This document shows, in pieces, positions 977 through 17,841 of a DNA stretch of 24,000 bases. The notes under the pieces are model-generated. The model worked only from the letters and a program-made list of their open reading frames with translations, was not told the origin of the DNA and ran no database searches. The position numbers and the translations under genes were made by a program. Location: the NCBI RefSeq assembly GCF_017875395.1, contig NZ_JAGGMO010000004.1, positions 42,478-66,477 on the forward strand, given 5' to 3'. Source of the DNA: Methanococcus voltae (lineage in GTDB: Archaea; AGJL01; Methanococci; Methanococcales; Methanococcaceae). The stretch's first letter is position 1. Every line of letters begins with the position of its first letter.

Positions 977-3958
977 TTATCTTTTAAATTTTCCATATTT
1001 GGATTCTCTTTTCTCAAAAGCTTGTTCTCCCCCCTCCAAAATTTCAAAAATATGTTCCCTAATACCTCGATTATATAAGATACCTTTCTTACTATTTTGA
1101 TAATTATTATTACAATTATCACAATTACCAAAATTCTTATTATCACATAATTTGTGAGGATTATATGAATATTCCAAAGCACCATTTGTATATTCAAATT
1201 TACATTCTTTATTTTCAGTACTATAACCATCCTGATTTGCAACAATGATATTTTCAGAGTCAGTAGATACGACTAAATTAGGATTGTGCGATACAATTAT
1301 TATTTGTCGATTAATTTTTTTATCTTTGATGTAATTTACTAAATTTTTAGAAACAGTTCTATTATCTAAATTATCTTCGGGTTGGTCAATTAATATAGGA
1401 TTTTCTGAATTATTGAGTTCAAGATATAGTTTTAATAAAACGGTGCCTTTTTTTCCCTCAGACATTTTACTTATTGAATCATTTTCATATTTTATATCAT
1501 AATTAATTGTAAAATAATTATCGAACAAAGCCGATATCTGATTTAAATATGTTTCACCATTTTTTATTATATCTTTTTTATGTCCTTTCTTATAAGAGTC
1601 TAAAATAAACTCAAAAATATTAGAGATATTTGAAATGTGGGTATCTAGATTATATTCATAGTACTTTTTATCATTGAAACATTTGAAAGTAGCATAAAAT
1701 TCTCTATTCGATGATTTGTAGAATATATCGCTAAAATTTTTGTTATCAAAACTTAAGTTCCCAGTAATAGTTAAATTACTTTCTAGATTATTATCTCCAT
1801 ATTCACTATTTATCTTTTTAATACGACTATTATAATTTTCGAAAATTTTAGTATAATGTAGGATAATCTCCTCTTTATTAGCATTTATTCTTTTTTCGAG
1901 GTCTTCGATTATAGTTTCTAAATTGATAATTTTATCAAGTTTAGATTGTTCTTTATCCTTTTTTTCAAATAAATTCTTAATAATAGCTTCTTTTTCTAAT
2001 TTTTTGGCATATTTAGATATTTTTTCTTTTAGTATATCTTGCTGTGAGATATAATTAATTATTTGATTAGTGGTTTCTTCCATATATTCGTATATTTTAC
2101 TTTCATACTCAATACTAATTAATTTTGAGCGTATGCTTATTTCATCTTGTAAATCTTTTATTTTACTGTTTAAATTACTTAAATCGTTTTGATTAGTATT
2201 TTGACTATGCTGTATACCATAACTACCAATCCCTTCCATATATTCATTAGTAGCTTGTTTTATATGCTTTTTAAAAGAACTTAATGTATTCTTTAATTCA
2301 TTTTTACTACCTAAATCCTTATTTAATGAGTCTAATTCATCTTTTAATTTGGTATATTCTTCGAGCTCTGATTCCGATAATTTACAGGTAACTTCTAAAT
2401 CCTTAATTTCATTAGTTAATCTTTCAATCTCGCTAGTAATGGCGGTTTTAGAACCTGCATTATATAAGTCAGCAGTATATTTTAAATATTCTTCTAAATT
2501 ACCATCTAGGTTAATGGATAATGAAGAAATTTTTTTTTGCAAATTTTTTACATTACCTTCCATATCTTCCAAGTATTGTTTAATGTCACTTTTTTCAAAA
2601 ATTATATTTTCCACAAGTTCATTTAATTCTTTAGAATTTTCACTTATGGTTGACAGATGCATTTGAGGAATGTATGTAATATTACGATTTTCTTTATTTT
2701 TATCAGTATATTTATCAATATGTTCGTCGCCCCAAACAACTTCAAAATCCTCTAATTCCTTCTCAAAAAACTCATCATATTTTTTAATTTTTTCCGAATT
2801 ATAGTTTTTTACGTCCTTTGCGCATTTTAAATCGTCACTGATATTACTATTAATTGTCTTTGCAATTAAATAAAGCAATATAGATTTCCCTGACGATTTA
2901 CCCCCTATTATAGAATTTAAATTTTGATTTAAATATATTCTTTCATTAGTAAAATAAGGTTTTCCAGTTTTATCTGCGCGATTTATAAATCTAACATATT
3001 TTATGTAATCATATGGTGTTTTTTGCTCAGGTTTTTCCTCTTGAACTTTTATACGGTCATTATCATAAACGATTTGTTTCAAACCTTCAAATGTGGTATT
3101 TGCTTTTATCCAAGTTTTACAATTTCCAATCTTATCTTTTTGAGTAGAATTTGAGAAATAATGTGCATCGCTACAATCCAATAATAAATCATTTACCTTA
3201 TTATCTTTTAATTTAGTTTTAGCATTATTATAGTTTTCAACAGATTCAGATGCGGTAAATACAAGAGGTACCCTATTAATAATATTTTTCTTCTCGGAAA
3301 TTGATGATTCACTCCACCCTAGTTTATCCCATTCCGTTTTACCGACTGCCATTAAATATTTTCCCTGAAAACGATTATTCATTATTAAATTACTTTCAAT
3401 ATCTTTAAAATCTACATTTAAATTATTAAACCCAATTTTTAAATCGGATTTTTTATCATCTCTGGGGCTAGTTTCTTTTATTTTTTTACCCAATTCTTCC
3501 AAAGATTCTTTCGTTACGCAACCATCCCAAATAACCTCCTCTCGACCAAGTGTTCCTTTTTCTAAATGGTACTTACATTGGATTGCCTTTAAAAACTGAC
3601 TTTTAATTGTTTTTACTTTAAGTTCTTCAGAAAATATAACGTGTAAATTTATACGTTTAAGATTCTCAAACTTTACACCTGCAAAATTACTTATTCTAAA
3701 TTCAACTACAGGTAATAATGTATCGATATTTTCTAATCGACCCTCTTTTTTATAATTTAATAACTTTTCATAGCCATCAAGAAATAAGTAATCATTAATC
3801 CCGAGAACTTTAAACTCAGAGGGTAAGTTTTCCAAATCTGTTACATATTTTTCCCAAACGTCAGCTTTGCCCCCATAATGATTAATTATCGAACAAGGGG
3901 TATGAACATGTAAATCCCATATATTCCATTCTGAACCTCGAGGGTATTTTATATTCAA
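977..3958 (-). CDS. PHP-domain phosphoesterase fused to a coiled-coil SMC/Rad50/ABC-type ATPase (Ppl-like architecture)
   Basis: N-terminal PHP motifs: WDLHVHT (HxH), VVEF, NLHVIF, DCSDAHY. Walker A is IIGGKSSGKS. A heptad-rich E/K/L segment of about 300 aa separates the ATPase halves. Walker B/D-loop is ILIDQPEDNLD and the H-loop is IIVSHNPN. Confidence 0.85.
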   Translation of the reverse strand: MNIKYPRGSEWNIWDLHVHTPCSIINHYGGKADVWEKYVTDLENLPSEFKVLGINDYLFLDGYEKLLNYKKEGRLENIDTLLPVVEFRISNFAGVKFENLKRINLHVIFSEELKVKTIKSQFLKAIQCKYHLEKGTLGREEVIWDGCVTKESLEELGKKIKETSPRDDKKSDLKIGFNNLNVDFKDIESNLIMNNRFQGKYLMAVGKTEWDKLGWSESSISEKKNIINRVPLVFTASESVENYNNAKTKLKDNKVNDLLLDCSDAHYFSNSTQKDKIGNCKTWIKANTTFEGLKQIVYDNDRIKVQEEKPEQKTPYDYIKYVRFINRADKTGKPYFTNERIYLNQNLNSIIGGKSSGKSILLYLIAKTINSNISDDLKCAKDVKNYNSEKIKKYDEFFEKELEDFEVVWGDEHIDKYTDKNKENRNITYIPQMHLSTISENSKELNELVENIIFEKSDIKQYLEDMEGNVKNLQKKISSLSINLDGNLEEYLKYTADLYNAGSKTAITSEIERLTNEIKDLEVTCKLSESELEEYTKLKDELDSLNKDLGSKNELKNTLSSFKKHIKQATNEYMEGIGSYGIQHSQNTNQNDLSNLNSKIKDLQDEISIRSKLISIEYESKIYEYMEETTNQIINYISQQDILKEKISKYAKKLEKEAIIKNLFEKKDKEQSKLDKIINLETIIEDLEKRINANKEEIILHYTKIFENYNSRIKKINSEYGDNNLESNLTITGNLSFDNKNFSDIFYKSSNREFYATFKCFNDKKYYEYNLDTHISNISNIFEFILDSYKKGHKKDIIKNGETYLNQISALFDNYFTINYDIKYENDSISKMSEGKKGTVLLKLYLELNNSENPILIDQPEDNLDNRTVSKNLVNYIKDKKINRQIIIVSHNPNLVVSTDSENIIVANQDGYSTENKECKFEYTNGALEYSYNPHKLCDNKNFGNCDNCNNNYQNSKKGILYNRGIREHIFEILEGGEQAFEKRESKYGKFKR

Positions 3959-4119: not shown

Positions 4120-4464
4120 TTAAAACTTGTATAAATTAACATTTCCCTTTATAACGCCCATATTTATAAAACCTTCATTATTTGATGAGCTATTAGCTCC
4201 AAATTTAGAATTATAATCATTATTTTCCAAATTATCTAAATTATCCAGTATATTTTTAAAATAAATTCCTTTATCGGATAATTTATAAATATCTTTATTA
4301 TTCAATACAATTTCTAAGTTTAACAGTTCTAACATTATCATATCTAATTCATTATAATCTATTCTTAAAACACTTTTTAATTCTTCAAATTGTAATTCTT
4401 TATTTACATGCAAACAATTAATTATTTCTTTAACATGTTCTTTTGAAATCAATTTATCCATCAT
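4120..4464 (-). CDS. small winged-helix (ArsR/MarR-like) DNA-binding protein with a conserved C-terminal GFINxGxIKGNV tail
   Basis: 114-aa ORF with GAGGG SD 6 nt before the ATG. The helix-turn-helix-like stretch is LQFEELKSVLRIDYNELDMIMLELLNLEIV, followed by a wing at YKLSDKG. It is a paralogue of 11447..11863. Confidence 0.7.
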   Translation of the reverse strand: MMDKLISKEHVKEIINCLHVNKELQFEELKSVLRIDYNELDMIMLELLNLEIVLNNKDIYKLSDKGIYFKNILDNLDNLENNDYNSKFGANSSSNNEGFINMGVIKGNVNLYKF

Positions 4465-4740
4465 AATAAACCCTCGAGATTTTTAATTGGATATATTAAG
4501 AATTAGTACTTAATTAGTTAAATCGTTAATTTAAATAATAATATTTTCTAAAAGATTACATATATAATTTAAGGTTTTAACGGGTTAAAAAGTTTAAATT
4601 TATAAAAATTTGTTTCGGTAATATTTTATATTCTTAAACCCAAATATATTTTTATTATATTTGAGGGGATTATTATTAACGAGTACATAGCAACTTGGAA
4701 TAATATAATAGCAAATTGTAGTTATGATAATACATATAAA

Positions 4741-5673
4741 ATGGCGTGGGCTAAGGCATTGGTAGAACTATGTGTTCTAAATACGGATTTAAAAAATATT
4801 AAAAATAACCAAAATTCAACAATTTCATTCACATTCGAAGAAATTGCAGAGCTATATTTAAAATATTATTGGAATCAAACAATATACTTTGATTTAGTAC
4901 AGGGCTCTAATCTTACAAAATTACCTGTCATTATACAGCACGTTAAAAAATTGATAAGAGAATATAACGCTATTGCAGGAAATAATCCTAAAAAATATGA
5001 AAAAATAGATTTTAAAGCATTAGGTTTAGAAAAAGCTTACAAAAATACTATAAAAAAGATTTCTAACGTACTACCTGAAAATGTAGCTTGGAGATTTAAA
5101 AAATTAAATAAAAATACTTACGAAATTTATGAATTAGACTTAGAAAAAAGAACTGTTAGTTTTAAATTAGAAGATGCAATGATTTTAAACAGGTACTCTG
5201 ATTTAATGTTCCAAATAATAAATTATCGATGGACACAGATGTTAGAAGGTTTTAACTTATCTCCTCGAATATCTTCAAAAGTAAAAGTTTGTGACCAACC
5301 TGAAATTAAAAGAAATAGCTTAAATAAATTTAAAAAGTTTTTAGACTGCGAATTTGAAGATGAATATAGGTATTGTTTTTACAGTACTGAAAAATTATCT
5401 AACGATTTAACTTCTATAGACCACGTTATACCTTGGTCTTTTATGTACTCCGATGATATATGGAATTTAGTTTATTGTAATAGGTGCATAAATTCAAGTA
5501 AATCAAATAAAACGCCTACCGAAGATACTATAGAAAAGTTAGAAGATAGAAATATATTACTCTTAAAAAAATTGGAAAATTCTGTATATTCTACAAGTAA
5601 AGTTACTAAGGAATTAAATTTAGCGATTAAAAAAGATTATGTTAGAAAATTTTGGATAGCTTCGAAGGGATAA
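4741..5673 (+). CDS. HNH endonuclease-domain protein (C-terminal HNH_4/Cas9-type HNH, N-terminal ~200 aa unknown); the true start may be upstream at about 4672
   Basis: C-terminal motif is SIDHVIPWSFMYSDDIWNLVYCNRCINSSKSNKTP (DH...N...N pattern). The frame is open back to 4639. A strong GAGGGG SD sits at 4663-4668, whereas the ATG at 4741 has no SD. Confidence 0.85.
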   Translation: MAWAKALVELCVLNTDLKNIKNNQNSTISFTFEEIAELYLKYYWNQTIYFDLVQGSNLTKLPVIIQHVKKLIREYNAIAGNNPKKYEKIDFKALGLEKAYKNTIKKISNVLPENVAWRFKKLNKNTYEIYELDLEKRTVSFKLEDAMILNRYSDLMFQIINYRWTQMLEGFNLSPRISSKVKVCDQPEIKRNSLNKFKKFLDCEFEDEYRYCFYSTEKLSNDLTSIDHVIPWSFMYSDDIWNLVYCNRCINSSKSNKTPTEDTIEKLEDRNILLLKKLENSVYSTSKVTKELNLAIKKDYVRKFWIASKG

Positions 5674-5674
5674 C

Positions 5675-5998
5675 ATGAAAATTCACTATAATAAACTCGT
5701 AAGGGGTAATATTATTGATATTATAGAAAAAGACAACAAAAAAGCAAGTTTTCACATTGCAAACGATGAAGAATATAAAATAAAACTCTATGAAAAATTA
5801 AACGAAGAAATTGACGAATTTAAAAATAATCCTTGTGAAGAAGAACTTTCAGATATTTTGGAGGTAATTTATACAATATCTAAACTTAATAATTTTGATT
5901 TAGAAACTGTTGAAAAAATAAGAAAATCTAAATTATTAAAAAATGGAGGATTTGAAAAAAAGATAATCCTTGAAGATGTTGATATTGAAGAGATTTGA
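5675..5998 (+). CDS. MazG-like / PRA-PH-like all-alpha nucleoside-triphosphate pyrophosphohydrolase
   Basis: 107 aa. The N-terminal YNKLVRGNIIDII resembles the KLVRDxIP signature of this family. Acidic metal-binding clusters are EEIDEF and EELSDILEV. The ATG lies 1 nt after the HNH gene stop, with a GAAGGGA SD inside that gene. Confidence 0.75.
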   Translation: MKIHYNKLVRGNIIDIIEKDNKKASFHIANDEEYKIKLYEKLNEEIDEFKNNPCEEELSDILEVIYTISKLNNFDLETVEKIRKSKLLKNGGFEKKIILEDVDIEEI

Positions 5999-6000
5999 AT
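5941..6000 (+). repeat. left copy of a ~60-bp direct repeat (the 3' end of the MazG-like gene) bracketing the TA cassette
   Basis: It aligns with 6701-6760 at a constant offset of 760 bp. The core 5950-5992 versus 6710-6752 has 2 mismatches in 43. Confidence 0.85.
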
Positions 6001-6044
6001 TTATAAAAATTTATAAAAAAAGTAAGAAAATAATATTTAATAAA

Positions 6045-6305
6045 TTAATATGCATCGTCATGATGTGCATATTCTAAAATAATAATGGTATTAACATCTT
6101 CTTTAATTTCATATATTAAAACAAAAGAAGAATAAACGTGAATTCGATAATTACCTTTTAATTCATGCCTTAAAGGTTTTCCACAATATGGATTTTCAAT
6201 TAATTTATTAAATGATTTGTTTAAAGCTTCCGCATGCTTTTTATCTTTTCTAGCTATTCTTTTAATTTTATTAGATAATTTTTCATTTGCAATTTTTAAT
6301 TGCAT
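6045..6305 (-). CDS. type II toxin, RelE/ParE superfamily
   Basis: 86 aa with the typical pattern ...NPYCGKPLRHELKGNYRIHVYSSFVLIYEIKEDVNTIIILEYAHHDDAY. It lies immediately downstream of a small antitoxin-like ORF. Confidence 0.8.
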   Translation of the reverse strand: MQLKIANEKLSNKIKRIARKDKKHAEALNKSFNKLIENPYCGKPLRHELKGNYRIHVYSSFVLIYEIKEDVNTIIILEYAHHDDAY

Positions 6306-6328
6306 TTTACCATCTCTTATAATGGTAA

Positions 6329-6580
6329 TTATAAACCGAGTAATTCACGCCTATAAGCTTCACTAGTTATATCCACATTTTCCGAAGGCAAACTTTTCTT
6401 GTTTGCAAGTACTGACTGAATAAATTCTTCTTTGAACGTTTCTTTATTTAATATTTTTTCAGCGTATTGTAAAACGATATAGTTTATAGCTTCACTTTTA
6501 TCCTTGAATTCTTCAGTCGTTTTTACCAAGTTGATTATTTTATTGGTATTTTCATCTAAAGTAATGTTTGCTTTTACCAT
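6329..6580 (-). CDS. antitoxin, probable ribbon-helix-helix type
   Basis: 83 aa. The N-terminal beta-strand-like NITLDENT is followed by helices. It lies 23 nt upstream of the RelE/ParE-like ORF on the same strand. Confidence 0.7.
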   Translation of the reverse strand: MVKANITLDENTNKIINLVKTTEEFKDKSEAINYIVLQYAEKILNKETFKEEFIQSVLANKKSLPSENVDITSEAYRRELLGL

Positions 6581-6700: not shown

Positions 6701-6760
6701 AAAATGGAAATTTAAAAAAAAGATAATCCTTAAAGATGTTGATATTGAAGATGTTTAAGT
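6701..6760 (+). repeat. right copy of the ~60-bp direct repeat, an orphan remnant of the MazG-like gene 3' end
   Basis: It would encode ...NGNLKKKIILKDVDIEDV*, compared with the gene's ...NGGFEKKIILEDVDIEEI*. No ORF is attached upstream. Confidence 0.85.
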
Positions 6761-7359
6761 TATTTATTTATAAAGTCTATGCAATCATAACATTTATTAT
6801 TCGCTTCTGATTTTAATATTACAAGTCTTGGTAAATTTTTAAATTCTTCATCATACTTTTTTAAACATTCATACGTGGATTTTAATGCAATACTATTCCC
6901 TTCAGTATCAAATCTGTCATAATCATTAGCGTCTGTAGTTAAAAATGTTGGATTTACCGGTACCGTATTATGATTTATTGTCCACAATATGAAATTAGAA
7001 AATATTTCAATATCTGCGTCATTATCTGTTAAATCATCTAATAAGCTATAGTATAATCGATTGAATGATTGGTTTGTAAAATCAGAATAATTTACCATTT
7101 TCACAATTTTATTTAAATAATTACTGATTGCCCCATATATGGTAACCTTTTGTTCTTCAGTTATTCTACCTTCATTGACATAGTGTTTTAATATCTTCAT
7201 AGACCTATGAAGTACTTCATTCTTCACTTTTTTACACGTTGTAGCATCATTATATGTGGTCAAATTATTTTCTTTAAGAAATTCCGTTACTAATTTATTT
7301 TGTGGATCTAAATTAATATGTTGTCCTATTACCACACAAGAATCTAAAAATAAATTCAT
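6760..7359 (-). CDS. PIN-like nuclease-domain protein
   Basis: 199 aa. Acidic residues are spaced as in PIN domains: LFLDSCVVIG (D6), VKNEVL, DNDADIEIF, FLTTDANDYD. Its ATG overlaps the upstream gene's stop (ATGA). Confidence 0.65.
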   Translation of the reverse strand: MNLFLDSCVVIGQHINLDPQNKLVTEFLKENNLTTYNDATTCKKVKNEVLHRSMKILKHYVNEGRITEEQKVTIYGAISNYLNKIVKMVNYSDFTNQSFNRLYYSLLDDLTDNDADIEIFSNFILWTINHNTVPVNPTFLTTDANDYDRFDTEGNSIALKSTYECLKKYDEEFKNLPRLVILKSEANNKCYDCIDFINK

Positions 7360-8633
7360 AAGCCATTACCCCCAAATTCCTTTCTAAACTCTGATTGGAT
7401 ATCTTCATCAAGTTCAATCCTTAAAGATTCGTTCTTTAATTCTTCATAGGATGGGCGTAATTCAGCATATTTTTCATCTAATTCATTTAATTTTTTAGAT
7501 AAGTTATCATCATAATCTTCTAAAATTGATAAATAAGCTTCACTATTAAACTCCGGTGATTCTTGATCAGGTATTGGAAGTAATATATCATATATAAATT
7601 CATAGAATAAACTTTTCATCTCCAGAATTACAGGTTTTGATTTTTTTATATCATAATTCCTTAAATATAAATTTAAAGTGTTGAAATAATTCCATAAAAT
7701 AACTTCACGTTCATCTTCATATTTTCTGAAATTTAATGTATTTTCTAACCGATTAATAGCTTTTTTTAATTCATCAATAGGGTCGTGAGTTATGAATTTT
7801 GTAAGTTTTTGTTTATTTGATTCATAATTGATTAATTCATCAAAACAAGTTTCTAAATTACGTACTGCTTTTTTTAAACCATCGTCAAGAACGGCATTTC
7901 CAAAAATATCCATTTGAATGCCTTTGTACGGACTAATTGAATTTATAAATATAAATTCATGTTTTACATTATCATATTTTCCATGAATTTTAACAGACCT
8001 GTTGGCAAAACTAAGAATACTTTCTTGTAAATTTTTAGGTAATCCCAAATAACTACCTTTTATTTTTCTACTAACTGTTTTTAAAGTAAATTTCTTAAGA
8101 TCTAAATCTACAGCAGTTAGTATCCCATATTTATCCACATGCTGTGGTTTGTGATATTTAGAATCCAATTCTTCAATTATTTTCATTTTAGATTTGTTAA
8201 AATAAGTATATTCTGAATTGCTTTTTGGTAACTCTTCACTACAACATATACTTATATCATTTTTGTCATTGGACCAAACTCTAGAAGTATATTTAATAAT
8301 GTCGGGAATCCTGAGTTTTAAATTATTATCTATAAGGTGTTTTTCAATGTCTTCACCAGTTTCTGCATTATTAATGTCTGATACATAGTTATTGACTACA
8401 CCATATAATTTAGTTGAATCATTGGTTGCAGTTGAACATTTTAAAATGGCAGAGCCTGGTTTAATATCTTCGATATATAATGTAAATTCAGCAGGATTTT
8501 CCTTAAAACCCCTTAATTTTTCAACCAATTTTTGAAAATCACCAGTTATTTTTGAAAATTCTTCCATGGTTATTTTATGATATTTAACAGATTTTCCGTC
8601 AATTCGTAACCATAAAGCTTTATTTTTTATCAT
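7356..8633 (-). CDS. hypothetical 425-aa protein, no recognisable domain; the C-terminal third is helical and acidic
   Basis: Long ORF with GAGGA SD 4 nt before the ATG. It is translationally coupled to the PIN-like gene by a 4-nt overlap. Confidence 0.75.
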   Translation of the reverse strand: MIKNKALWLRIDGKSVKYHKITMEEFSKITGDFQKLVEKLRGFKENPAEFTLYIEDIKPGSAILKCSTATNDSTKLYGVVNNYVSDINNAETGEDIEKHLIDNNLKLRIPDIIKYTSRVWSNDKNDISICCSEELPKSNSEYTYFNKSKMKIIEELDSKYHKPQHVDKYGILTAVDLDLKKFTLKTVSRKIKGSYLGLPKNLQESILSFANRSVKIHGKYDNVKHEFIFINSISPYKGIQMDIFGNAVLDDGLKKAVRNLETCFDELINYESNKQKLTKFITHDPIDELKKAINRLENTLNFRKYEDEREVILWNYFNTLNLYLRNYDIKKSKPVILEMKSLFYEFIYDILLPIPDQESPEFNSEAYLSILEDYDDNLSKKLNELDEKYAELRPSYEELKNESLRIELDEDIQSEFRKEFGGNGL

Positions 8634-8816: not shown

Positions 8817-9062
8817 TTATTCAGCCAAAATAATATATGTATAACCATCTTCTTTTTTAACGAACTCACACTTATCTAAATCAATTTTTTCGTCAATAAA
8901 ATCCACTATATACGATTCAAACATTTCTAAAATATCTTCTTTAGAAACAGGCCTACTAATATCAATGTGTAAAATCATAGTTTCTTTTTCTTTACCATTT
9001 TCAAAAGGTGTAATTTCAAAATCTGTATAATCATTTTTAAATTTATATAATATTTTTTCCAT
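8817..9062 (-). CDS. hypothetical small acidic protein (81 aa)
   Basis: AGGTGA SD lies 4 nt before the ATG. The gene is 49 nt downstream of the 585-aa gene on the same strand. Confidence 0.6.
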   Translation of the reverse strand: MEKILYKFKNDYTDFEITPFENGKEKETMILHIDISRPVSKEDILEMFESYIVDFIDEKIDLDKCEFVKKEDGYTYIILAE

Positions 9063-9111: not shown

Positions 9112-10869
9112 TTAATATCCAATATTAATTTCTAAAATATACGGATATTCTTTATAATTATCTTCAACGTTGCTTTTAAACGTTGTATATATTCCCTTAT
9201 AGCCATTATGTTTTTCTAATTCGTTTTCAACTATTAAATAATAGTTATATTTTAATTCAGGTGCTAAATCTTCCAAATAATAATTTATTTTCTCGCCAGA
9301 TTTATAATTTGAAGGTAGATATTTATTAGTCAAATTTTTATCAAGATTTATATTTTTATCCCCTAAATCGTTGTTTAAATTTGAAGTTGCTAAATTTAAC
9401 ATGTAAGGCGTTATGTACCTTTTTTTAGTCATATCTTTTGTATCTTGAACTTTCGAAACTATTGTTTCATTATTTTTTAATTCTAACTTGTATATACGTA
9501 AATTTTCAATATTATACTTACTTAAGTAATTACCTAAGTTAAATATTGTATTTACTTGGTCTATTGCATAATAATTGTTACCATACTCTATCGCTGTAAA
9601 ACTGTGTCCTTCTCCACCATATTCTTCAAGTTCTACGATATAGGCACCATACTCTGCATTTAATAGATAAGCACAGCTGAACAGCGTATAATCTGAACAT
9701 ACACCGCTTTTTAGTTTATACATTTCAAAAGGTGTATATGGTCTACCGTAATCTTCTTGATTGGCTCTTGATTGATTATACTCAAAGTTTTTAGCTTGGA
9801 AGTTTGCTAAATTAACTGTAGTTTCTAAAACGTTATTTGATTGTAAATAAGTTAATTTTGGTATCTCTTTTAAATATTTGGGCTGCAATAAAGCTGTTGA
9901 ATAATCATACATATCGATTATATTGTTATTGTCATAATCGTCATAATATCCGTAAATTTCTTCTTTTGGAAGTACATAACCTGTTGAATCCTGATTTTGA
10001 AACATTGACATTATTGCATTTTGATTTAAAACAATTAATCCAACTAAAACTATGATTGATAGTAGACCTACGTTTTTAATTGAAAATATATTATTTATTT
10101 TATTACTTTTATTCTTAGTATTATTTTTACTAATTTTTTTATTGCAATTATTGTTTCTTTTTAATGTATTATTTTTATTTTGTTTATTATTCTTAATTTT
10201 GTTTTTATCATCTGTTTTACTTTTTTTAGACTTAAAAAATTTATTATTATCTTTATAATTCTGATTTTTTAAATAAAAATCATTATTTTCATTGTTTATT
10301 GATTTAGTTGTATCTTCCTTTTTTCTAATTAATTTTCCATCAGTTTTTTCATCTAATTCCATGTATTTATAATCATCCCATTCTTCGTCGAAATTATCAT
10401 CAACAGATTCTTGAATTTCTTGGTTTATAGAATATCCTTTTAGATTATTCTTAAAATCTTGATAATATTTTACATCGATATATTTCGCATAATTCTCACT
10501 ATTTAACAAAATATCAATAAGTTCAATTACTTTATCATTTTGCTTTTTTATGTAATAATTGTCTATTTCATCCTCTATTTGTTTAACATCTTGCTTATAT
10601 ATTTTAGAAGATAGTATATCATCGTAAAAATTTTTAAATTCTGGTTTTTTATCTTTAGAATTGCTTATTATATACTCAACATATTCGTCATCATCATAAA
10701 GACGATTACCGCTATCTAATATATTTTCGATATATTCTTTCGAAGATTCGTGATTTCCGTTTAGATACTCTATATAAGCATAATACATATTCATAGAGCC
10801 ACTTGAACCATTATATGCTAATTCTCGTTCAATTAAGGTTTTAACCTTTTCATATTCGCCATGATACAT
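9112..10869 (-). CDS. membrane-anchored protein: N-terminal TPR-like helical region, K/N-rich low-complexity linker, one TM helix, C-terminal transglutaminase-like cysteine-peptidase fold
   Basis: The TM helix is VGLLSIIVLVGLIVL. The Cys-His-Asp pattern is GVCSDYTLFSCAYLL ... GEGHSFTAIEY ... YYAIDQ. The frame stays open upstream to 10974 with a GGTGGG SD and no canonical start codon. Confidence 0.75.
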   Translation of the reverse strand: MYHGEYEKVKTLIERELAYNGSSGSMNMYYAYIEYLNGNHESSKEYIENILDSGNRLYDDDEYVEYIISNSKDKKPEFKNFYDDILSSKIYKQDVKQIEDEIDNYYIKKQNDKVIELIDILLNSENYAKYIDVKYYQDFKNNLKGYSINQEIQESVDDNFDEEWDDYKYMELDEKTDGKLIRKKEDTTKSINNENNDFYLKNQNYKDNNKFFKSKKSKTDDKNKIKNNKQNKNNTLKRNNNCNKKISKNNTKNKSNKINNIFSIKNVGLLSIIVLVGLIVLNQNAIMSMFQNQDSTGYVLPKEEIYGYYDDYDNNNIIDMYDYSTALLQPKYLKEIPKLTYLQSNNVLETTVNLANFQAKNFEYNQSRANQEDYGRPYTPFEMYKLKSGVCSDYTLFSCAYLLNAEYGAYIVELEEYGGEGHSFTAIEYGNNYYAIDQVNTIFNLGNYLSKYNIENLRIYKLELKNNETIVSKVQDTKDMTKKRYITPYMLNLATSNLNNDLGDKNINLDKNLTNKYLPSNYKSGEKINYYLEDLAPELKYNYYLIVENELEKHNGYKGIYTTFKSNVEDNYKEYPYILEINIGY

Positions 10870-11446: not shown

Positions 11447-11863
11447 TTATTTTTGAAATTTAACATTACCACCAATATTTCCAGTATTTACAAATCCAGA
11501 ATTATCATTAATTGTATTATTACTTTGTATATTTTTTTTGGCATTGTTTGAATCTTTTATAATTATTTCTATATTTTTATTTCTTTCCAAAGCTTCAGAA
11601 ATTTCATAAATTTTAATAACGGATTTTCCCAAATCCGAAAGTTTAAAATATGACATTGGCATACTCTCTCCTTTGGGTTCTCTGCGCTTAAATACCAATT
11701 TTTTTTTAACTAACGTCGAAAGTATTTTACTTAAATTTCCACTATCTATATCTAATTCGTTTTGTATTTGTCCAGAATATAATTCACCCCGATTATACAA
11801 AATATATAATATTTCCTTAACATATTTTTTAGTTAATGTTTTTAATAACATAGTATACCTCAA
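11447..11863 (-). CDS. winged-helix (ArsR/MarR-like) DNA-binding protein with a conserved C-terminal GFVNTGNIGGNV tail
   Basis: 138 aa. The HTH is ELYSGQIQNELDIDSGNLSKILSTLVKKKLV and the wing is YFKLSDLG. It is a paralogue of 4120..4464 and is divergent from the integrase operon. Confidence 0.75.
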   Translation of the reverse strand: MRYTMLLKTLTKKYVKEILYILYNRGELYSGQIQNELDIDSGNLSKILSTLVKKKLVFKRREPKGESMPMSYFKLSDLGKSVIKIYEISEALERNKNIEIIIKDSNNAKKNIQSNNTINDNSGFVNTGNIGGNVKFQK

Positions 11864-12717: not shown

Positions 12718-12969
12718 ATGCGTAAATATTTTTACACAAGAAATAAAATTGATTCAAGAGATGTAAGGTATTTCTTACATAAAATAGAGGAATTAAAAGA
12801 AATAAATCCCGAATATTTAGTTCAAGCAGTTAAATATGAAAAAAAGCACAAAGTTTCTATAACTTTATCGGAAAGAGAAGCTAAAATCGTTGAAAAATAT
12901 GGAAAAGCCACCGACATATTGATTAATTATTTGCAAGAGGCAGAGCTACATGAAGGATACCAATATTAA
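12718..12969 (+). CDS. hypothetical protein (83 aa), possible RHH-like C-terminal half
   Basis: AGGGGG SD lies 5 nt before the ATG. VSITLSEREAKIVEKYGKATDILINYLQE has a strand-helix-helix appearance. It overlaps the int start by 20 nt. Confidence 0.6.
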   Translation: MRKYFYTRNKIDSRDVRYFLHKIEELKEINPEYLVQAVKYEKKHKVSITLSEREAKIVEKYGKATDILINYLQEAELHEGYQY

Positions 12970-13933
12970 TGATTTACTAATGATTAAAGAGAAGCGGAAG
13001 AAAAAGGAAAAAGTTGGAAGAAGCACGCAAATGGAAGACTGGGTGGATAGATACATTGAAGAACGGGAATTCGACGGAATTAAACAAAATACTATTAAAA
13101 ATGATATTACCCGATTGAGAGTTTATTTGAGATTTTGCTTTGAAACACATCACACAAAACCTGAAGACATGACCACTGAAGATTTTGTTAAATTCTTTAA
13201 CTATCTTGAAAAAGAACGTGAAACTTCAAGAAATACACAAAACAGGTATTTTAACTTTTTAAAAGTTTTTCACAGAGTTTTTAAACTTAAAAACTTTAAA
13301 GAGTTTGAAATAGATTCACAGGATAGAAAGAGATTTGGTAAGATTGAAGTAAAACATTACGATGCAATGACTCTTGATATTTTAAATTCGATAATTGAAA
13401 AGATTATTCAGCAAAACTCTAGAACTAAAATAAGGGATATTACAATGTTAAGGTTGCTTTGGGATACGGGTTGTAGACATTCTGAAGTATTAAATTTAAC
13501 CTATGGAGATTGCGACCTTAAAAAAGGTGAATTTCTACTTAGAAATACTAAAGGGAGTAAAGAAAGAAAGGTAGTTTGTAGTTATGAAACTTTAAAGCTG
13601 TTGAATTATTATGTAAAGCATAATCTTTACAATACGCCCAATAGTCCGTTATTTCAGAATGATAAAGGTGAAAGGGTAAATAATACATGGCTTGGAAAAT
13701 CTTTTAGGGAAGCAGTTGAGGAATTAAAGAAAGATGGGGAAATTCCTCAAAATAAAAGAATTGTAATTCATTCTATTCGACACGGTAGAGCAGTTGATAT
13801 GTTGAATAAAGGTGTTGGTATAGACATTGTAAAAGAATATCTTGGTCATAGGTCAATTGAAACTACTTTGTTTTATAGCCATTCTAAAGAGAGAACCGAG
13901 GGCATGCTTAACGATTTAAAAGATTTATTATAA
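12950..13933 (+). CDS. int: tyrosine recombinase / phage-type integrase
   Basis: Catalytic signature: LLWDTGCRHSEV (Arg), IHSIRHGRAV (HxxR), YLGHRSIETTLFYSH (His...Tyr). An N-terminal SAM-like core-binding region is present (RVYLRFCFE...FVKFFNYLEKE). Confidence 0.9.
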   Translation: MKDTNINDLLMIKEKRKKKEKVGRSTQMEDWVDRYIEEREFDGIKQNTIKNDITRLRVYLRFCFETHHTKPEDMTTEDFVKFFNYLEKERETSRNTQNRYFNFLKVFHRVFKLKNFKEFEIDSQDRKRFGKIEVKHYDAMTLDILNSIIEKIIQQNSRTKIRDITMLRLLWDTGCRHSEVLNLTYGDCDLKKGEFLLRNTKGSKERKVVCSYETLKLLNYYVKHNLYNTPNSPLFQNDKGERVNNTWLGKSFREAVEELKKDGEIPQNKRIVIHSIRHGRAVDMLNKGVGIDIVKEYLGHRSIETTLFYSHSKERTEGMLNDLKDLL

Positions 13934-17288: not shown

Positions 17289-17618
17289 ATATATCGAAGG
17301 ACTTCAATATATTGAAAATTCCCGAAATAGGACCCTAGTCCTGCAACCTGTCAATCAACTTTACGGGTCCTTTTTGCCATATGCTCTTTATAGCCCCAAC
17401 GGCGGATAGTTTACTTGGTGCCTTTTTGAGATTTTCTTTAAAAACTCTTTAAATTAAAAAATAAGTTCAATAAGCCCGTAGATAGATTTTAAAAAAATAA
17501 GCGTATAACGTACTTAAATAAAGCTATAAAACTATAAAATAACCATATTAAAAGAATAACAAACTTAAATAAAACATATTTTAAAACTAAGCTTAAATAA
17601 AACTTCAATAAAAGAATA

Positions 17619-17703
17619 CGCGGAGACCGCGATTTGAACGCGGGTTGAGCAGAGCTCAACGGGATTAGCAGTCCCGCGCCGTACCAGGCTGGGCCATCTC
17701 CGC
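17619..17703 (-). tRNA. tRNA-Ser (anticodon GCU)
   Basis: Manual fold of the minus strand. Acceptor GCGGAGA/TCTCCGC; 3-bp D stem GCC/GGC; anticodon stem CGGGA/TCCCG with loop CTGCTAA; long variable arm TTGAGC-tct-GCTCAA (class II); T arm CCGCG-TTCAAAT-CGCGG; discriminator G; no encoded CCA. Confidence 0.9.
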
Positions 17704-17841
17704 ACCGTATAATTAATAGTTGACTTCAATTAGTCACAAATATAGGATGGTGATTCTACTATATAAACATTTCGGTTAAATTTATAAATTTAGATTTTTA
17801 GAGATTCTATACGCCATAGGATAAAAATTTAAAATTATTTA

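What the first reader, a model, noticed from the sequence alone, without database searches (positions are those of the whole stretch)
4639..5998. HNH nuclease plus MazG-like NTP pyrophosphatase operon: candidate uncharacterised two-gene defence module
Seen: a 310+ aa protein has a C-terminal Cas9-type HNH motif (DHVIPWS...WNLVYCN...NSSKSNKTP) and about 200 aa of unrecognised N-terminal sequence. One nucleotide after its stop comes a 107-aa all-alpha NTP-pyrophosphohydrolase-like protein (KLVRGNII..., EEIDEF, EELSDILEV). The pair sits among a PHP-ATPase, a TA cassette and a PIN module, and is divergently paired with a wHTH regulator. Inference: pairing a DNA nuclease with a nucleotide-pool 'sanitiser' suggests sensing or clearing non-canonical (phage-modified) dNTPs while cutting invader DNA, or a nuclease/immunity pair. 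I do not recognise this pair as a named system. The usual KLVRDxIP Asp is Gly here (KLVRGNII), so catalytic competence should be checked.
Basis: partly seen in the sequence, partly recalled or inferred. Interest (0 to 1): 0.7.

Follow-up and report, generated by a model that had tools for sequence, protein, structure and literature searches.

The report
HNH nuclease with nucleotide-hydrolase partner
A mobile two-gene cassette in Methanococcus voltae pairs a Cas9-type HNH DNA nuclease, carrying a previously undescribed restriction-system domain, with a small MazG-like nucleotide pyrophosphatase; this linkage recurs across bacteria and archaea and probably forms an uncharacterised restriction-type defence module.

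Summary
An HNH_4 nuclease gene is followed one base later by a 107-aa MazG/PRA-PH-like gene. The organism is Methanococcus voltae.

- **Gene start.** The nuclease gene is about 22 codons longer than annotated. It probably starts at a non-AUG codon (ATT) near 4675.
- **Linkage.** Of 80 genomes carrying the nuclease, 35 have the MazG-like gene abutting it, in three different gene orders. Another 20 have an unrelated HIT hydrolase in its place, 5 have a small SAM methyltransferase, and 20 have no partner.
- **Asymmetry.** The small gene is promiscuous. It more often sits beside SauUSI-like or DUF3427 type IV restriction genes and Nudix genes.
- **Context.** Neighbours include McrBC, Shedu, BREX, TrlF/Ppl and toxin-antitoxin genes. 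A cognate DNA methylase is almost never present, and the nuclease is absent from phage records.

Best reading (about 0.45): a type IV-like restriction nuclease with an accessory hydrolase that clears non-canonical nucleotides. Function is untested. The Asp-to-Gly change in KLVRD is unique among 238 family members.

The parts
4592..6007 (+). Two-gene cassette as a unit: the block shared at 90% nucleotide identity with a second M. voltae strain, where the flanking DNA is unrelated.
   Evidence: blastn of L161/L162 against the window. Gene tables of L161/L162.
4599..4608 (+). TATA-box-like TTTATAAAAA upstream of the operon (putative archaeal promoter; inferred only).
   Evidence: Read directly from the sequence. 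Not tested.
4663..4668 (+). Shine-Dalgarno-like GAGGGG ahead of the probable true start of the nuclease gene. A similar GAAGGG lies 8 nt before the second gene's ATG.
   Evidence: Sequence. Conserved in the sister strain.
4675..5673 (+). HNH nuclease gene, probable full length of 332 aa. It starts at a non-AUG codon (ATT at 4675, which aligns with Met1 of homologues; ATT at 4669 or 4672 are alternatives). The annotated start is ATG 4741 (310 aa).
   Evidence: Homologues cover 99% of a query begun at 4669. Alignment shows invariant DNTYKM upstream of ATG 4741. In the sister strain, 3 of 5 upstream substitutions are synonymous and the frame stays open.
4675..5268 (+). N-terminal domain of about 198 aa (helical with two small beta-hairpins; signature DNTYKMAWAKA...YYWNQ...RW). 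It is undescribed in Pfam and has no solved structural relative found. It also occurs fused to other restriction-type effectors.
   Evidence: AF2 pLDDT 89, pTM 0.87. Foldseek PDB best E 0.83 and BFVD best E 0.48. 603 representatives in a profile search. Other architectures.
5376..5520 (+). Cas9-type HNH (His-Me finger) catalytic core: CFYS...IDHVIPWS...WNLVY...NSSKSN.
   Evidence: Pfam HNH_4 at residues 214-259 of the 310-aa form, E=1e-11. PDB Cas9 HNH E=2e-7. Foldseek probability 0.98-1.0 to isolated Cas9 HNH domains.
5675..5998 (+). 107-aa MazG/PRA-PH-like (COG4997-type) all-alpha NTP pyrophosphohydrolase-like gene. The acidic motifs are intact. Gly replaces the near-invariant Asp of KLVRD.

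Best explanation
The two genes form one operon that travels as a small mobile cassette within a low-GC defence and mobile island.

The first gene product is a DNA nuclease. Its C-terminal Cas9/McrA-like HNH domain cuts DNA. Its N-terminal 200-aa domain is a previously undescribed module confined to restriction-type systems, and it targets or regulates the nuclease.

A cognate DNA methyltransferase is almost never linked to the gene. The partner gene family also accompanies bona fide modification-dependent enzymes. I therefore infer that the nuclease attacks DNA carrying non-canonical (modified) bases or backbone, in a type IV-like manner, rather than ordinary host DNA.

The second product is a small nucleotide hydrolase, interchangeable in evolution with HIT and accompanied in some operons by Nudix. 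I infer that it hydrolyses the matching non-canonical (d)NTPs or nucleotides. Modified nucleotides made by a phage, or released when modified DNA is degraded, would then not be built into the host chromosome, where they would provoke self-restriction. Removing them may also deprive the invader of them.

**Shown:** the domains, catalytic residues, operon structure, conserved linkage, partner displacement, genomic contexts and mobility.

**Inferred:** modification dependence, the substrate of the hydrolase, and the self-protection logic.
For: 1. **Nuclease competence.** HNH_4 E=1e-11 with invariant D-H, N, N residues.
2. **Linkage.** 35 of 80 genome loci have the MazG-like gene abutting the nuclease: downstream, upstream-overlapping, or divergent. 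M. maripaludis and a second M. voltae strain also keep the pair.
3. **Non-homologous displacement.** In 20 loci a HIT hydrolase (PF01230, best E 1.4e-25) sits in the same abutting position, either upstream or downstream. On the nuclease tree, HIT appears in at least three places, including inside a MazG-partnered clade. The required property therefore appears to be nucleotide hydrolysis.
4. **Not type II restriction-modification.** Among the 147 nearest neighbours only about 1-2 are DNA methyltransferases.
5. **Partner family beside type IV enzymes.** Examples are SauUSI-like (PLD + ResIII + DUF3427)-Nudix-MazG-like (L135), DUF3427-NOV_C (McaZI-type)-MazG-like (L155), and SauUSI-like-Nudix-DUF2075-MazG-like-HNH as one overlapping operon (L020).
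6. **Contexts.** M. maripaludis S2: MrcB_N-NOV_C | HNH | MazG-like | McrC-McrB | Shedu. Window: TrlF/Ppl-like ATPase, ParE, integrase, tRNA-Ser. Acinetobacter plasmids: between an integrase and BREX.
8. **Mobility.** Only 4592..6007 is shared between M. voltae strains. The nuclease is absent from 50,697 phage records.
[quoted passage not shown] Deleting that Nudix gene is tolerated and does not abolish restriction (PMC3312211), which fits an accessory sanitiser. DCTPP1, a MazG-like enzyme, acts on 5-methyl-dCTP (PMC4491611 abstract).
Against: - No experiment exists for this family, so modification dependence is inferred from context only.
- The N-domain has no detectable similarity to any known modified-base reader (SRA, EVE/PUA/DUF3427, MrcB_N, SBD, wH).
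- In another architecture it sits beside a C5 methylase. That would fit recognition of unmodified DNA.
- Twenty of 80 nuclease genes lack any partner, and 5 have a SAM methyltransferase instead of a hydrolase. The model does not explain the methyltransferase.
- HIT enzymes are not known dNTP pyrophosphatases.
- Many loci have housekeeping neighbours (glmS, pheS, epimerase).
- In this strain the nuclease lacks a canonical start codon and the partner carries a unique Asp-to-Gly change. The local copy may be impaired.
Confidence: 0.45

Rival explanations
1. Nucleotide-gated abortive-infection or toxin-antitoxin-like module. The HNH nuclease is a latent toxin, activated or licensed through its N-domain by a nucleotide that accumulates during infection. 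The MazG-like or HIT hydrolase keeps that nucleotide low in healthy cells, acting as an enzymatic antitoxin or signal-clearing enzyme.
For: - Tight operonic coupling, and interchangeable hydrolases of unrelated folds.
- HIT partners match the PADLOC 'ThsC HIT family' model associated with a signalling defence system.
- No methylase is linked.
- The context is rich in toxin-antitoxin genes.
Against: - No nucleotide cyclase or synthetase is linked.
- Twenty of 80 nuclease genes stand alone and are scattered over the tree, so the nuclease is tolerated without a partner.
- The analogous SauUSI-linked Nudix gene can be deleted without lethality.
- The N-domain shows no known nucleotide-binding fold.
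- The small protein is mostly found away from this nuclease.
Confidence: 0.2
2. Genome-maintenance pair rather than defence. The hydrolase removes a damaged or non-canonical dNTP before incorporation. The HNH enzyme nicks host DNA at the same lesion after incorporation to start repair.
For: - MazG, Nudix (MutT) and HIT (aprataxin-type) families all have members in nucleotide sanitation or DNA repair (established knowledge).
- Several loci have housekeeping neighbours.
Against: - The distribution is patchy and strain-specific, and the cassette occupies different places in two M. voltae strains.
- It is carried on plasmids and sits next to integrases and BREX.
- It is embedded among McrBC, Shedu, SauUSI-like and TrlF genes.
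- The N-domain recurs in restriction-type operons.
- Frequent frameshifted copies (L002, L012, L031, L033, L063) fit dispensable defence genes.
Confidence: 0.1
3. The local copy is decaying. In this M. voltae strain the cassette is a non-functional or weakened remnant. This rival concerns only this window and is compatible with any of the functional models above.
For: - There is no ATG, GTG or TTG for the conserved first 22 codons. Translation from ATG 4741 would remove the first helix and the invariant DNTYK motif.
- The partner has Gly at a position that is Asp in 230 of 238 relatives.
Against: - Both reading frames are intact.
- The upstream 66 nt stay in frame and encode the conserved residues in two strains that differ by about 10% in DNA. 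Three of the 5 changes are synonymous, and a conserved SD-like GAGGGG lies 6 nt before ATT 4675.
- The sister strain, with the same non-AUG start, keeps Asp.
- All metal-binding acidic residues are present.
Confidence: 0.2
4. Coincidental neighbours. Both genes are common cargo of defence islands and are adjacent without working together.
For: The small gene family is promiscuous. Only 3-4 of 80 of its loci carry this nuclease.
Against: - Direct adjacency occurs in 35 of 80 nuclease loci across phyla, in three gene orders, usually with overlapping or near-abutting reading frames.
- The same slot is filled by HIT in 20 further loci.
- The pair moves as a unit between M. voltae strains.
Confidence: 0.05

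Closest known systems
SauUSI (type IV restriction enzyme of Staphylococcus aureus) with its linked MutT/Nudix pyrophosphohydrolase gene
   Same: A restriction nuclease without a cognate methylase is conserved next to a small NTP pyrophosphohydrolase of unknown role. That partner is not needed for restriction itself (PMC3141236; PMC3312211). SauUSI-like genes, Nudix, the MazG-like gene and this HNH gene even occur in one operon (L020, L016, L008).
   Different: The nuclease here is a 330-aa HNH protein with an unknown N-domain, not a PLD-helicase-DUF3427 protein. The partner is an all-alpha MazG/PRA-PH-like protein or a HIT protein, not Nudix. Modification dependence is not shown here.
Reader-HNH type IV enzymes (EcoKMcrA, ScoMcrA, TagI/SRA-HNH)
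   Same: The architecture matches: an N-terminal non-catalytic domain plus a C-terminal HNH, with no linked methylase. One relative (P0365) joins this N-domain to MrcB_N and a McrA-type HNH (PADLOC mREase_IV, 4e-9).
   Different: The HNH core belongs to the Cas9-like HNH_4 subgroup. The N-domain matches none of the solved reader domains. No binding or cleavage data exist.
All-alpha NTP pyrophosphohydrolases (MazG, HisE/PRA-PH, DCTPP1, dimeric dUTPase)
   Same: The EExxE and E..D acidic motifs are present on predicted helices. Sub-threshold hits go to several families of this clan. Sources name the protein a MazG-superfamily house-cleaning NTP-PPase. DCTPP1 gives a precedent for clearing 5-modified dCTP.
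   Different: The protein is a distinct subfamily (COG4997-type) with an N-terminal KLVRD motif, and no member has a solved structure. The window protein scores below every Pfam cutoff and carries Gly in place of the motif's Asp.
His-Me finger 'Group 23' of Jablonska et al. 2017
   Same: It is an uncharacterised His-Me nuclease family noted as encoded directly next to MazG-family genes (PMC5714182).
   Different: Group 23 was defined as having no Pfam or CDD entry, whereas this protein matches HNH_4 (that paper's Group 1). The two are therefore parallel associations, not the same family. Identity of the families could not be checked because accession numbers were not examined.
[not shown]
   Same: The same N-domain occurs in proteins of these operons (P0289 with MTaX1; P0249).
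   Different: Those proteins lack the HNH domain and have a linked methylase. No such genes lie in the window.

Membership tests
HNH / His-Me finger nucleases (Pfam HNH_4, Cas9-like subgroup) | Sequence match above the curated threshold | tested here: met
   HNH_4 45 bits against a cutoff of 22, E=1e-11. Profile against PDB Cas9 HNH, E=2e-7.
HNH / His-Me finger nucleases (Pfam HNH_4, Cas9-like subgroup) | Catalytic beta-beta-alpha-metal core with D-H, N and N residues | tested here: met
   D251, H252, N266 and N275 are invariant in 20-65 homologues and present in the window protein. The AF2 model matches isolated Cas9 HNH domains with probability 0.98-1.0.
HNH / His-Me finger nucleases (Pfam HNH_4, Cas9-like subgroup) | Nuclease activity | not testable with these tools
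   Needs biochemistry.
All-alpha NTP pyrophosphohydrolase superfamily (MazG / PRA-PH) | Sequence match above a curated family threshold | tested here: not met
   Window protein: MazG 15.1 bits against a cutoff of 22. No NCBIfam, PADLOC or PHROG hit. Only sub-threshold clan hits occur in 22 members. One longer family member (L048) passes PRA-PH, 25.8 against 21.3.
All-alpha NTP pyrophosphohydrolase superfamily (MazG / PRA-PH) | Metal-binding acidic motifs EExxE and ExxD/E on helices | tested here: met
   E44, E45, E48, E57, D60 and E63 are invariant in the family and present here. They align with the corresponding motifs of the HisIE PRA-PH domain 7bgm.
All-alpha NTP pyrophosphohydrolase superfamily (MazG / PRA-PH) | Four-helix-bundle fold and NTP to NMP + PPi activity | not tested
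Activity needs biochemistry. The effect of the unique D11G change is unknown.
Type IV (modification-dependent) restriction enzymes | Nuclease domain joined to a non-catalytic targeting domain, without a cognate methyltransferase | tested here: met
   N-domain plus HNH. DNA methyltransferases are about 1-2 of the 147 nearest neighbours. Exception: an N6_N4 MTase lies upstream in two M. maripaludis strains.
Type IV (modification-dependent) restriction enzymes | Targeting domain is a recognised modified-base or backbone reader | tested here: not met
   [not shown]
Type IV (modification-dependent) restriction enzymes | Cleaves modified but not unmodified DNA | not testable with these tools
   Needs biochemistry or genetics.
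Type II toxin-antitoxin / obligate nuclease-immunity pair | Toxin gene always accompanied by its cognate neutralising partner | tested here: not met
   Twenty of 80 nuclease loci have no partner. Partners of three unrelated folds occur. Only 3-4 of 80 partner-family loci carry the nuclease.
Named anti-phage systems in PADLOC-DB v2 | Match of either protein to a system-specific model | tested here: not met
   The nuclease gives only generic Cas9 HNH-domain hits, and the small protein gives none.

The most novel reading that the evidence does not exclude
The N-terminal 200-aa domain is a new kind of sensor for a non-canonical DNA or nucleotide feature. The nuclease-plus-hydrolase pair (MazG-like, HIT or Nudix) embodies a general, so far unrecognised principle of 'immunity by nucleotide sanitation'. 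Under this principle, modification-dependent nucleases are made safe for the host not by methylation but by an enzyme that destroys the modified nucleotide precursors or salvage products. This would also explain the long-unexplained SauUSI-Nudix linkage.
Probability: 0.25. Interest if true: 0.8.

Novelty: new variant of a known kind. Interest (0 to 1): 0.58.

Why it matters
If the model is right, it gives a testable answer to a question open since 2011: why restriction enzymes that lack a protective methylase are so often encoded next to small nucleotide pyrophosphatases. It also adds a compact two-gene module to the catalogue of prokaryotic defence, present in archaea as well as bacteria. It defines a new, widespread N-terminal domain (about 600 representative sequences) that marks restriction-type proteins of several architectures. 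A Cas9-type HNH domain joined to a new targeting domain could also interest enzyme developers seeking tools that detect DNA modifications. Separately, the apparent AUU-type start in Methanococcus is a caution for gene annotation.

Tried and rejected
- **Type II R-M reading: rejected.** DNA methyltransferases are almost absent from nearest neighbours. The N6_N4 MTase upstream in two M. maripaludis strains is replaced by an MrcB_N-NOV_C gene in strain S2.
- **Phage gene or homing endonuclease: rejected.** There is no match in 50,697 phage records. PHROG hits cover only the generic HNH core.
- **Phosphorothioate-reader (SBD-HNH) idea: considered.** HIT enzymes can desulfurate nucleoside phosphorothioates (own knowledge). 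However, neither the profile search nor the fold search retrieved the ScoMcrA SBD.
- **Flanking direct repeat: not conserved.** A 15-nt exact direct repeat (AATTTATAAAAATTT) lies at both edges of the cassette. It is not significant (11% of shuffles) and is absent from the sister strain.
- **Promoter and terminator scan: uninformative.** The sigma-70 promoter and intrinsic terminator scan does not suit an archaeon.
- **Literature.** Searches for COG4997 and for HNH+MazG+HIT as a named system found no description of this pair. 'Group 23' of Jablonska 2017 is a different, Pfam-less family.
- **Variant architectures.** A cluster-name look-up for these proteins returned no names.
Full report
**1. 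What is in the sequence**

The window is from Methanococcus voltae: both proteins have 100% identical database entries from that species.

Two same-strand ORFs lie at 4741..5673 and 5675..5998, separated by a single base after the TAA stop. The first matches Pfam HNH_4 (E=1e-11, 45 bits against a cutoff of 22). It also matches the HNH domains of Cas9 in PADLOC, NCBIfam and the PDB. The family's invariant D-H, N and N residues are present.

An AlphaFold2 model built on 65 homologues has mean pLDDT 89. Its C-terminal part matches isolated Cas9 HNH domains with probability 0.98-1.0.

**2. The gene is longer than annotated**

Homologues are 320-326 aa and cover 99% of a query that begins at 4669. 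The alignment places their Met1 on the ATT codon at 4675. The most conserved motif of the whole N-domain (DNTYKM) straddles the annotated ATG at 4741, which is its final Met.

There is no ATG, GTG or TTG in frame upstream. A Shine-Dalgarno-like GAGGGG sits at 4663-4668, and a similar GAAGGG precedes the second gene.

A second M. voltae strain, about 10% divergent in DNA, keeps the frame open and keeps GAGGGG ATT ATT AT(T/C). It shows 3 synonymous and 2 conservative changes in these 66 nt. I conclude that initiation at a non-AUG codon near 4675 is likely. With only five substitutions this is not proven. A truncated product that starts at Met23 and lacks the first helix and DNTYK remains possible.

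**3. The small protein**

On its own it scores below every curated threshold (MazG 15.1 bits against a cutoff of 22). NCBIfam, PADLOC and PHROGs give nothing.

Family-level evidence still supports membership of the all-alpha NTP-pyrophosphohydrolase superfamily:
- Sources name it and its relatives a MazG-superfamily house-cleaning NTP-PPase, a phosphoribosyl-ATP pyrophosphohydrolase, or an NTP pyrophosphohydrolase.
- Of 22 members, 8 give sub-threshold PRA-PH hits, 5 MazG, 5 dUTPase_2 and 4 MazG-like.
- One member passes the PRA-PH cutoff.
- The family profile's best PDB hit is the PRA-PH domain of HisIE, with the EExxE and E..D motifs aligned.

E44, E45, E48, E57, D60 and E63 are invariant and present in the window protein.

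Asp follows KLVR in 230 of 238 family members, and Gly occurs only in this protein. The sister M. voltae strain has Asp. Its effect cannot be judged without a structure or an assay.

**4. Is the pair conserved?**

A scan of one genome per species returned 80 loci with the nuclease.

| Partner next to the nuclease | Loci | Notes |
|---|---|---|
| MazG-like gene | 35 | Three arrangements (see below) |
| HIT-family hydrolase (~125 aa) | 20 | Pfam HIT, best E 1.4e-25; abutting, upstream or downstream |
| Small class I SAM methyltransferase | 5 | Overlaps the nuclease stop |
| No evident partner | 20 | Several copies frameshifted |

Sources.

The three arrangements of the MazG-like gene are:
- downstream, as in the window (Bacillales, Paenibacillus, Negativicutes, Methanococcus; median gap about 15 nt);
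- upstream and overlapping by about 11 nt (Clostridia, Erysipelotrichaceae);
- divergent (two Bacillaceae).

A class I SAM methyltransferase is also directly upstream of a distant Pseudoalteromonas relative.

On a neighbour-joining tree of the nucleases, partner type follows clades. HIT nevertheless appears in at least three separate places, including inside a MazG-partnered clade. Partnerless genes are scattered, which suggests losses.

The reverse test gives a different picture. Of 80 metagenomic loci encoding close relatives of the small protein, only 3-4 carry this nuclease family. The nuclease 'wants' a nucleotide hydrolase, but the hydrolase family has many other homes.

**5. Where else the small protein lives**

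Its commonest neighbours are restriction-type SF2 helicases (24 of 80 loci) and Nudix hydrolases (13-14 of 80, directly adjacent). Pfam shows these are type IV restriction contexts:
- L135: a SauUSI-type protein (PLD nuclease + ResIII helicase + DUF3427), then Nudix, MazG-like, DUF6998 and a helicase.
- L155: a DUF3427-NOV_C protein (the McaZI type of modification-dependent enzyme), then MazG-like, with a DUF2075/Schlafen-type helicase nearby.
- L020: one overlapping operon of SauUSI-like, Nudix, DUF2075, MazG-like and the HNH gene.

DUF3427 is an experimentally supported modified-cytosine reader (PMC6765204).

The literature already records the broader theme:
- Xu et al. (2011) found at least 60 SauUSI-like enzymes linked to MutT/Nudix pyrophosphohydrolases of unknown function (PMC3141236).
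- Monk et al. (2012) deleted the S. aureus Nudix gene without lethality and without losing restriction (PMC3312211).
- Bell et al. (2020) noted the same neighbours (PMC7641849).
- Jablonska et al. (2017) described a different, Pfam-less His-Me family ('Group 23') encoded next to MazG genes (PMC5714182).

**6. Context of the nuclease**

- **M. voltae.** The two strains share only window 4592..6007 (90% identity); the flanks are unrelated. The two genes plus about 80 bp of upstream DNA therefore behave as a cassette.
- **The window.** The cassette lies in a low-GC stretch (0.19-0.26, against 0.35 near the leucyl-tRNA synthetase gene). Nearby are a TrlF-family/Ppl-like ATPase, a ParE toxin, a tyrosine integrase and a tRNA-Ser gene.
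- **M. maripaludis S2.** The pair sits between an MrcB_N-NOV_C gene and McrC-McrB, next to a Shedu (SduA_C) gene. In two other strains the upstream gene is instead an N6_N4 methyltransferase beside a resolvase.
- **Acinetobacter plasmids.** A distant relative lies between an integrase and a BREX operon.
- **Nearest neighbours overall.** Among 147 nearest neighbours, DNA methyltransferases account for only about 1-2 proteins. DUF2075, AbiO-, Nhi- and MADS-type matches occur, alongside housekeeping genes such as glmS and pheS.
- **Phage and plasmid records.** The nuclease is absent from 50,697 phage records and present in 25 plasmid records.

**7. The N-domain is a module of restriction-type proteins**

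A profile of the N-domain finds 603 representatives (E up to 1e-3) among 1.84 billion proteins. Besides the ~325-aa HNH form, it heads other architectures:
- P0365 joins it to MrcB_N and a McrA-type HNH (PADLOC mREase_IV, 4e-9). That gene lies beside a PvuRts1I-like/SRA gene, a UvrD helicase and a NERD protein.
- Others carry RNA-polymerase-alpha-CTD or sigma-70-region-4 DNA-binding motifs, or long regions without any Pfam match.

This marks the domain as a targeting or regulatory module of restriction-like systems. It does not show what the domain recognises. Its co-occurrence with MrcB_N, and in another case with a methylase, cautions against calling it a modified-base reader.

**8. Most likely mechanism**

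I commit to a type IV-like restriction nuclease with an accessory nucleotide sanitiser (confidence about 0.45).

- **Shown:** a competent-looking HNH core, a conserved operon, interchangeable hydrolase partners of unrelated folds, absence of a cognate methylase, co-operonic and neighbouring type IV genes, and mobility.
- **Inferred:** that the nuclease attacks DNA with a non-canonical feature. Also inferred is that the hydrolase removes the corresponding nucleotides so that they are not incorporated into host DNA, with possible added harm to the invader.

Precedent for the chemistry comes from MazG-like DCTPP1 acting on 5-methyl-dCTP. From my own knowledge, the E. coli Nudix enzyme NudG also hydrolyses 5-methyl-dCTP. 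The tolerated deletion of the SauUSI-linked Nudix gene fits an accessory role rather than an antitoxin role.

Weak points:
- the N-domain is unidentified;
- the SAM-methyltransferase partners are unexplained;
- HIT enzymes are not known dNTPases;
- a quarter of the nucleases stand alone.

**9. Rivals**

- **Nucleotide-gated abortive-infection or toxin-antitoxin-like module (0.2).** It fits the interchangeable hydrolases but not the solo nucleases or the lack of a signal synthase.
- **Repair pair (0.1).** It fits the enzyme families but not the patchy, mobile, defence-island distribution.
- **Coincidental adjacency (0.05).** It is contradicted by three conserved gene orders and by partner displacement.
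- **Impaired local copy (about 0.2, independent of function).** The M. voltae copy may be weakened by its non-AUG start and the D11G change.

**10. Novelty and verdict**

The pair is not covered by PADLOC, and I found no paper describing it. It does belong to a known but unexplained theme: methylase-less restriction nucleases linked to nucleotide pyrophosphatases. I rate it a new variant of a known kind, of moderate to good interest.

The function remains untested.

Noticed in passing
window 4663-4741: The HNH gene appears to start at a non-AUG codon (ATT at 4675, after SD-like GAGGGG). Database annotation starts it 22 codons too late, at ATG 4741. The same arrangement occurs in a second M. 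voltae strain (GAGGGG ATT ATT ATC).
   Followed up: partly
window 5705-5707 (codon 11 of the 107-aa gene): Gly replaces an Asp that is present in 230 of 238 family members. The change is unique to this strain, and its functional effect is unknown.
   Followed up: partly
window 4120-4464 (-) and 11447-11863 (-): Two paralogous small winged-helix (MarR/TFIIE-alpha-like) genes are 30% identical. They share an unusual C-terminal tail, GF(I/V)N.G.I.GNV, and bracket about 7 kb of island genes.
   Followed up: partly
window 12950-13933 (+), 17618-17704 (-), GC profile 1-24000: A tyrosine integrase and a tRNA-Ser(GCT) gene lie next to the low-GC block (0.19-0.26 over 1-12 kb, against 0.35 at the leucyl-tRNA synthetase gene 20625-23567). 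This suggests an integrated island.
   Followed up: partly
window 977-3958 (-): A 993-aa TrlF-family AAA-like ATPase with an N-terminal PHP-like motif (NCBIfam 4.9e-164). It is related to the anti-phage protein Ppl (PADLOC 6e-18).
   Followed up: partly
window 6045-6580 (-): A ParE/RelE-type toxin gene (86 aa, Pfam ParE_toxin 1.2e-9) has an 83-aa upstream gene without a family hit, which is the presumed antitoxin.
   Followed up: no
window 6760-8633 (-): Overlapping 199-aa and 425-aa genes have no hit in Pfam, NCBIfam or PADLOC.
   Followed up: partly
window 8817-9062 (-) versus L161 6462-6730 (+): The 81-aa gene is 76% identical in DNA to the gene directly downstream of the cassette in the sister strain. 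In the window, about 2.8 kb (the ParE pair plus the two unknown genes) lies in between, and the orientation is inverted.
   Followed up: partly
window 9112-10869 (-): A 585-aa protein has a transglutaminase-like DUF553 domain, a long Asn/Lys-rich low-complexity stretch and a hydrophobic segment.
   Followed up: no
window 4597-4611 and 5998-6012: An exact 15-nt direct repeat (AATTTATAAAAATTT) lies at both edges of the strain-shared cassette. It is not significant (11% of shuffles) and is absent in the sister strain, so it is probably a TATA-like chance match.
   Followed up: yes
L066, L073-L076 (about 6990-7580 in L066); L169 3087-3680: In Acholeplasma/Anaeroplasma-like genomes and in a Pseudoalteromonas plasmid, the nuclease's partner is a ~190-aa class I SAM methyltransferase (Methyltransf_11/25, TehB-like) instead of a hydrolase. 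The sanitiser model does not explain this.
   Followed up: partly
[not shown]
   Followed up: partly
L024, L035-L037, L042, L044, L057, L065, L071, L079, L080: In marine Alpha- and Gammaproteobacteria and Bacteroidota, the HIT-HNH pair often lies just beyond glmS (and glmU), with small recombinase-like fragments. This is the classic Tn7-type insertion hotspot.
   Followed up: no
L002, L012, L031, L033, L063: The nuclease gene is split by a frameshift or stop codon in several genomes. This is consistent with a dispensable, frequently decaying gene.
   Followed up: no
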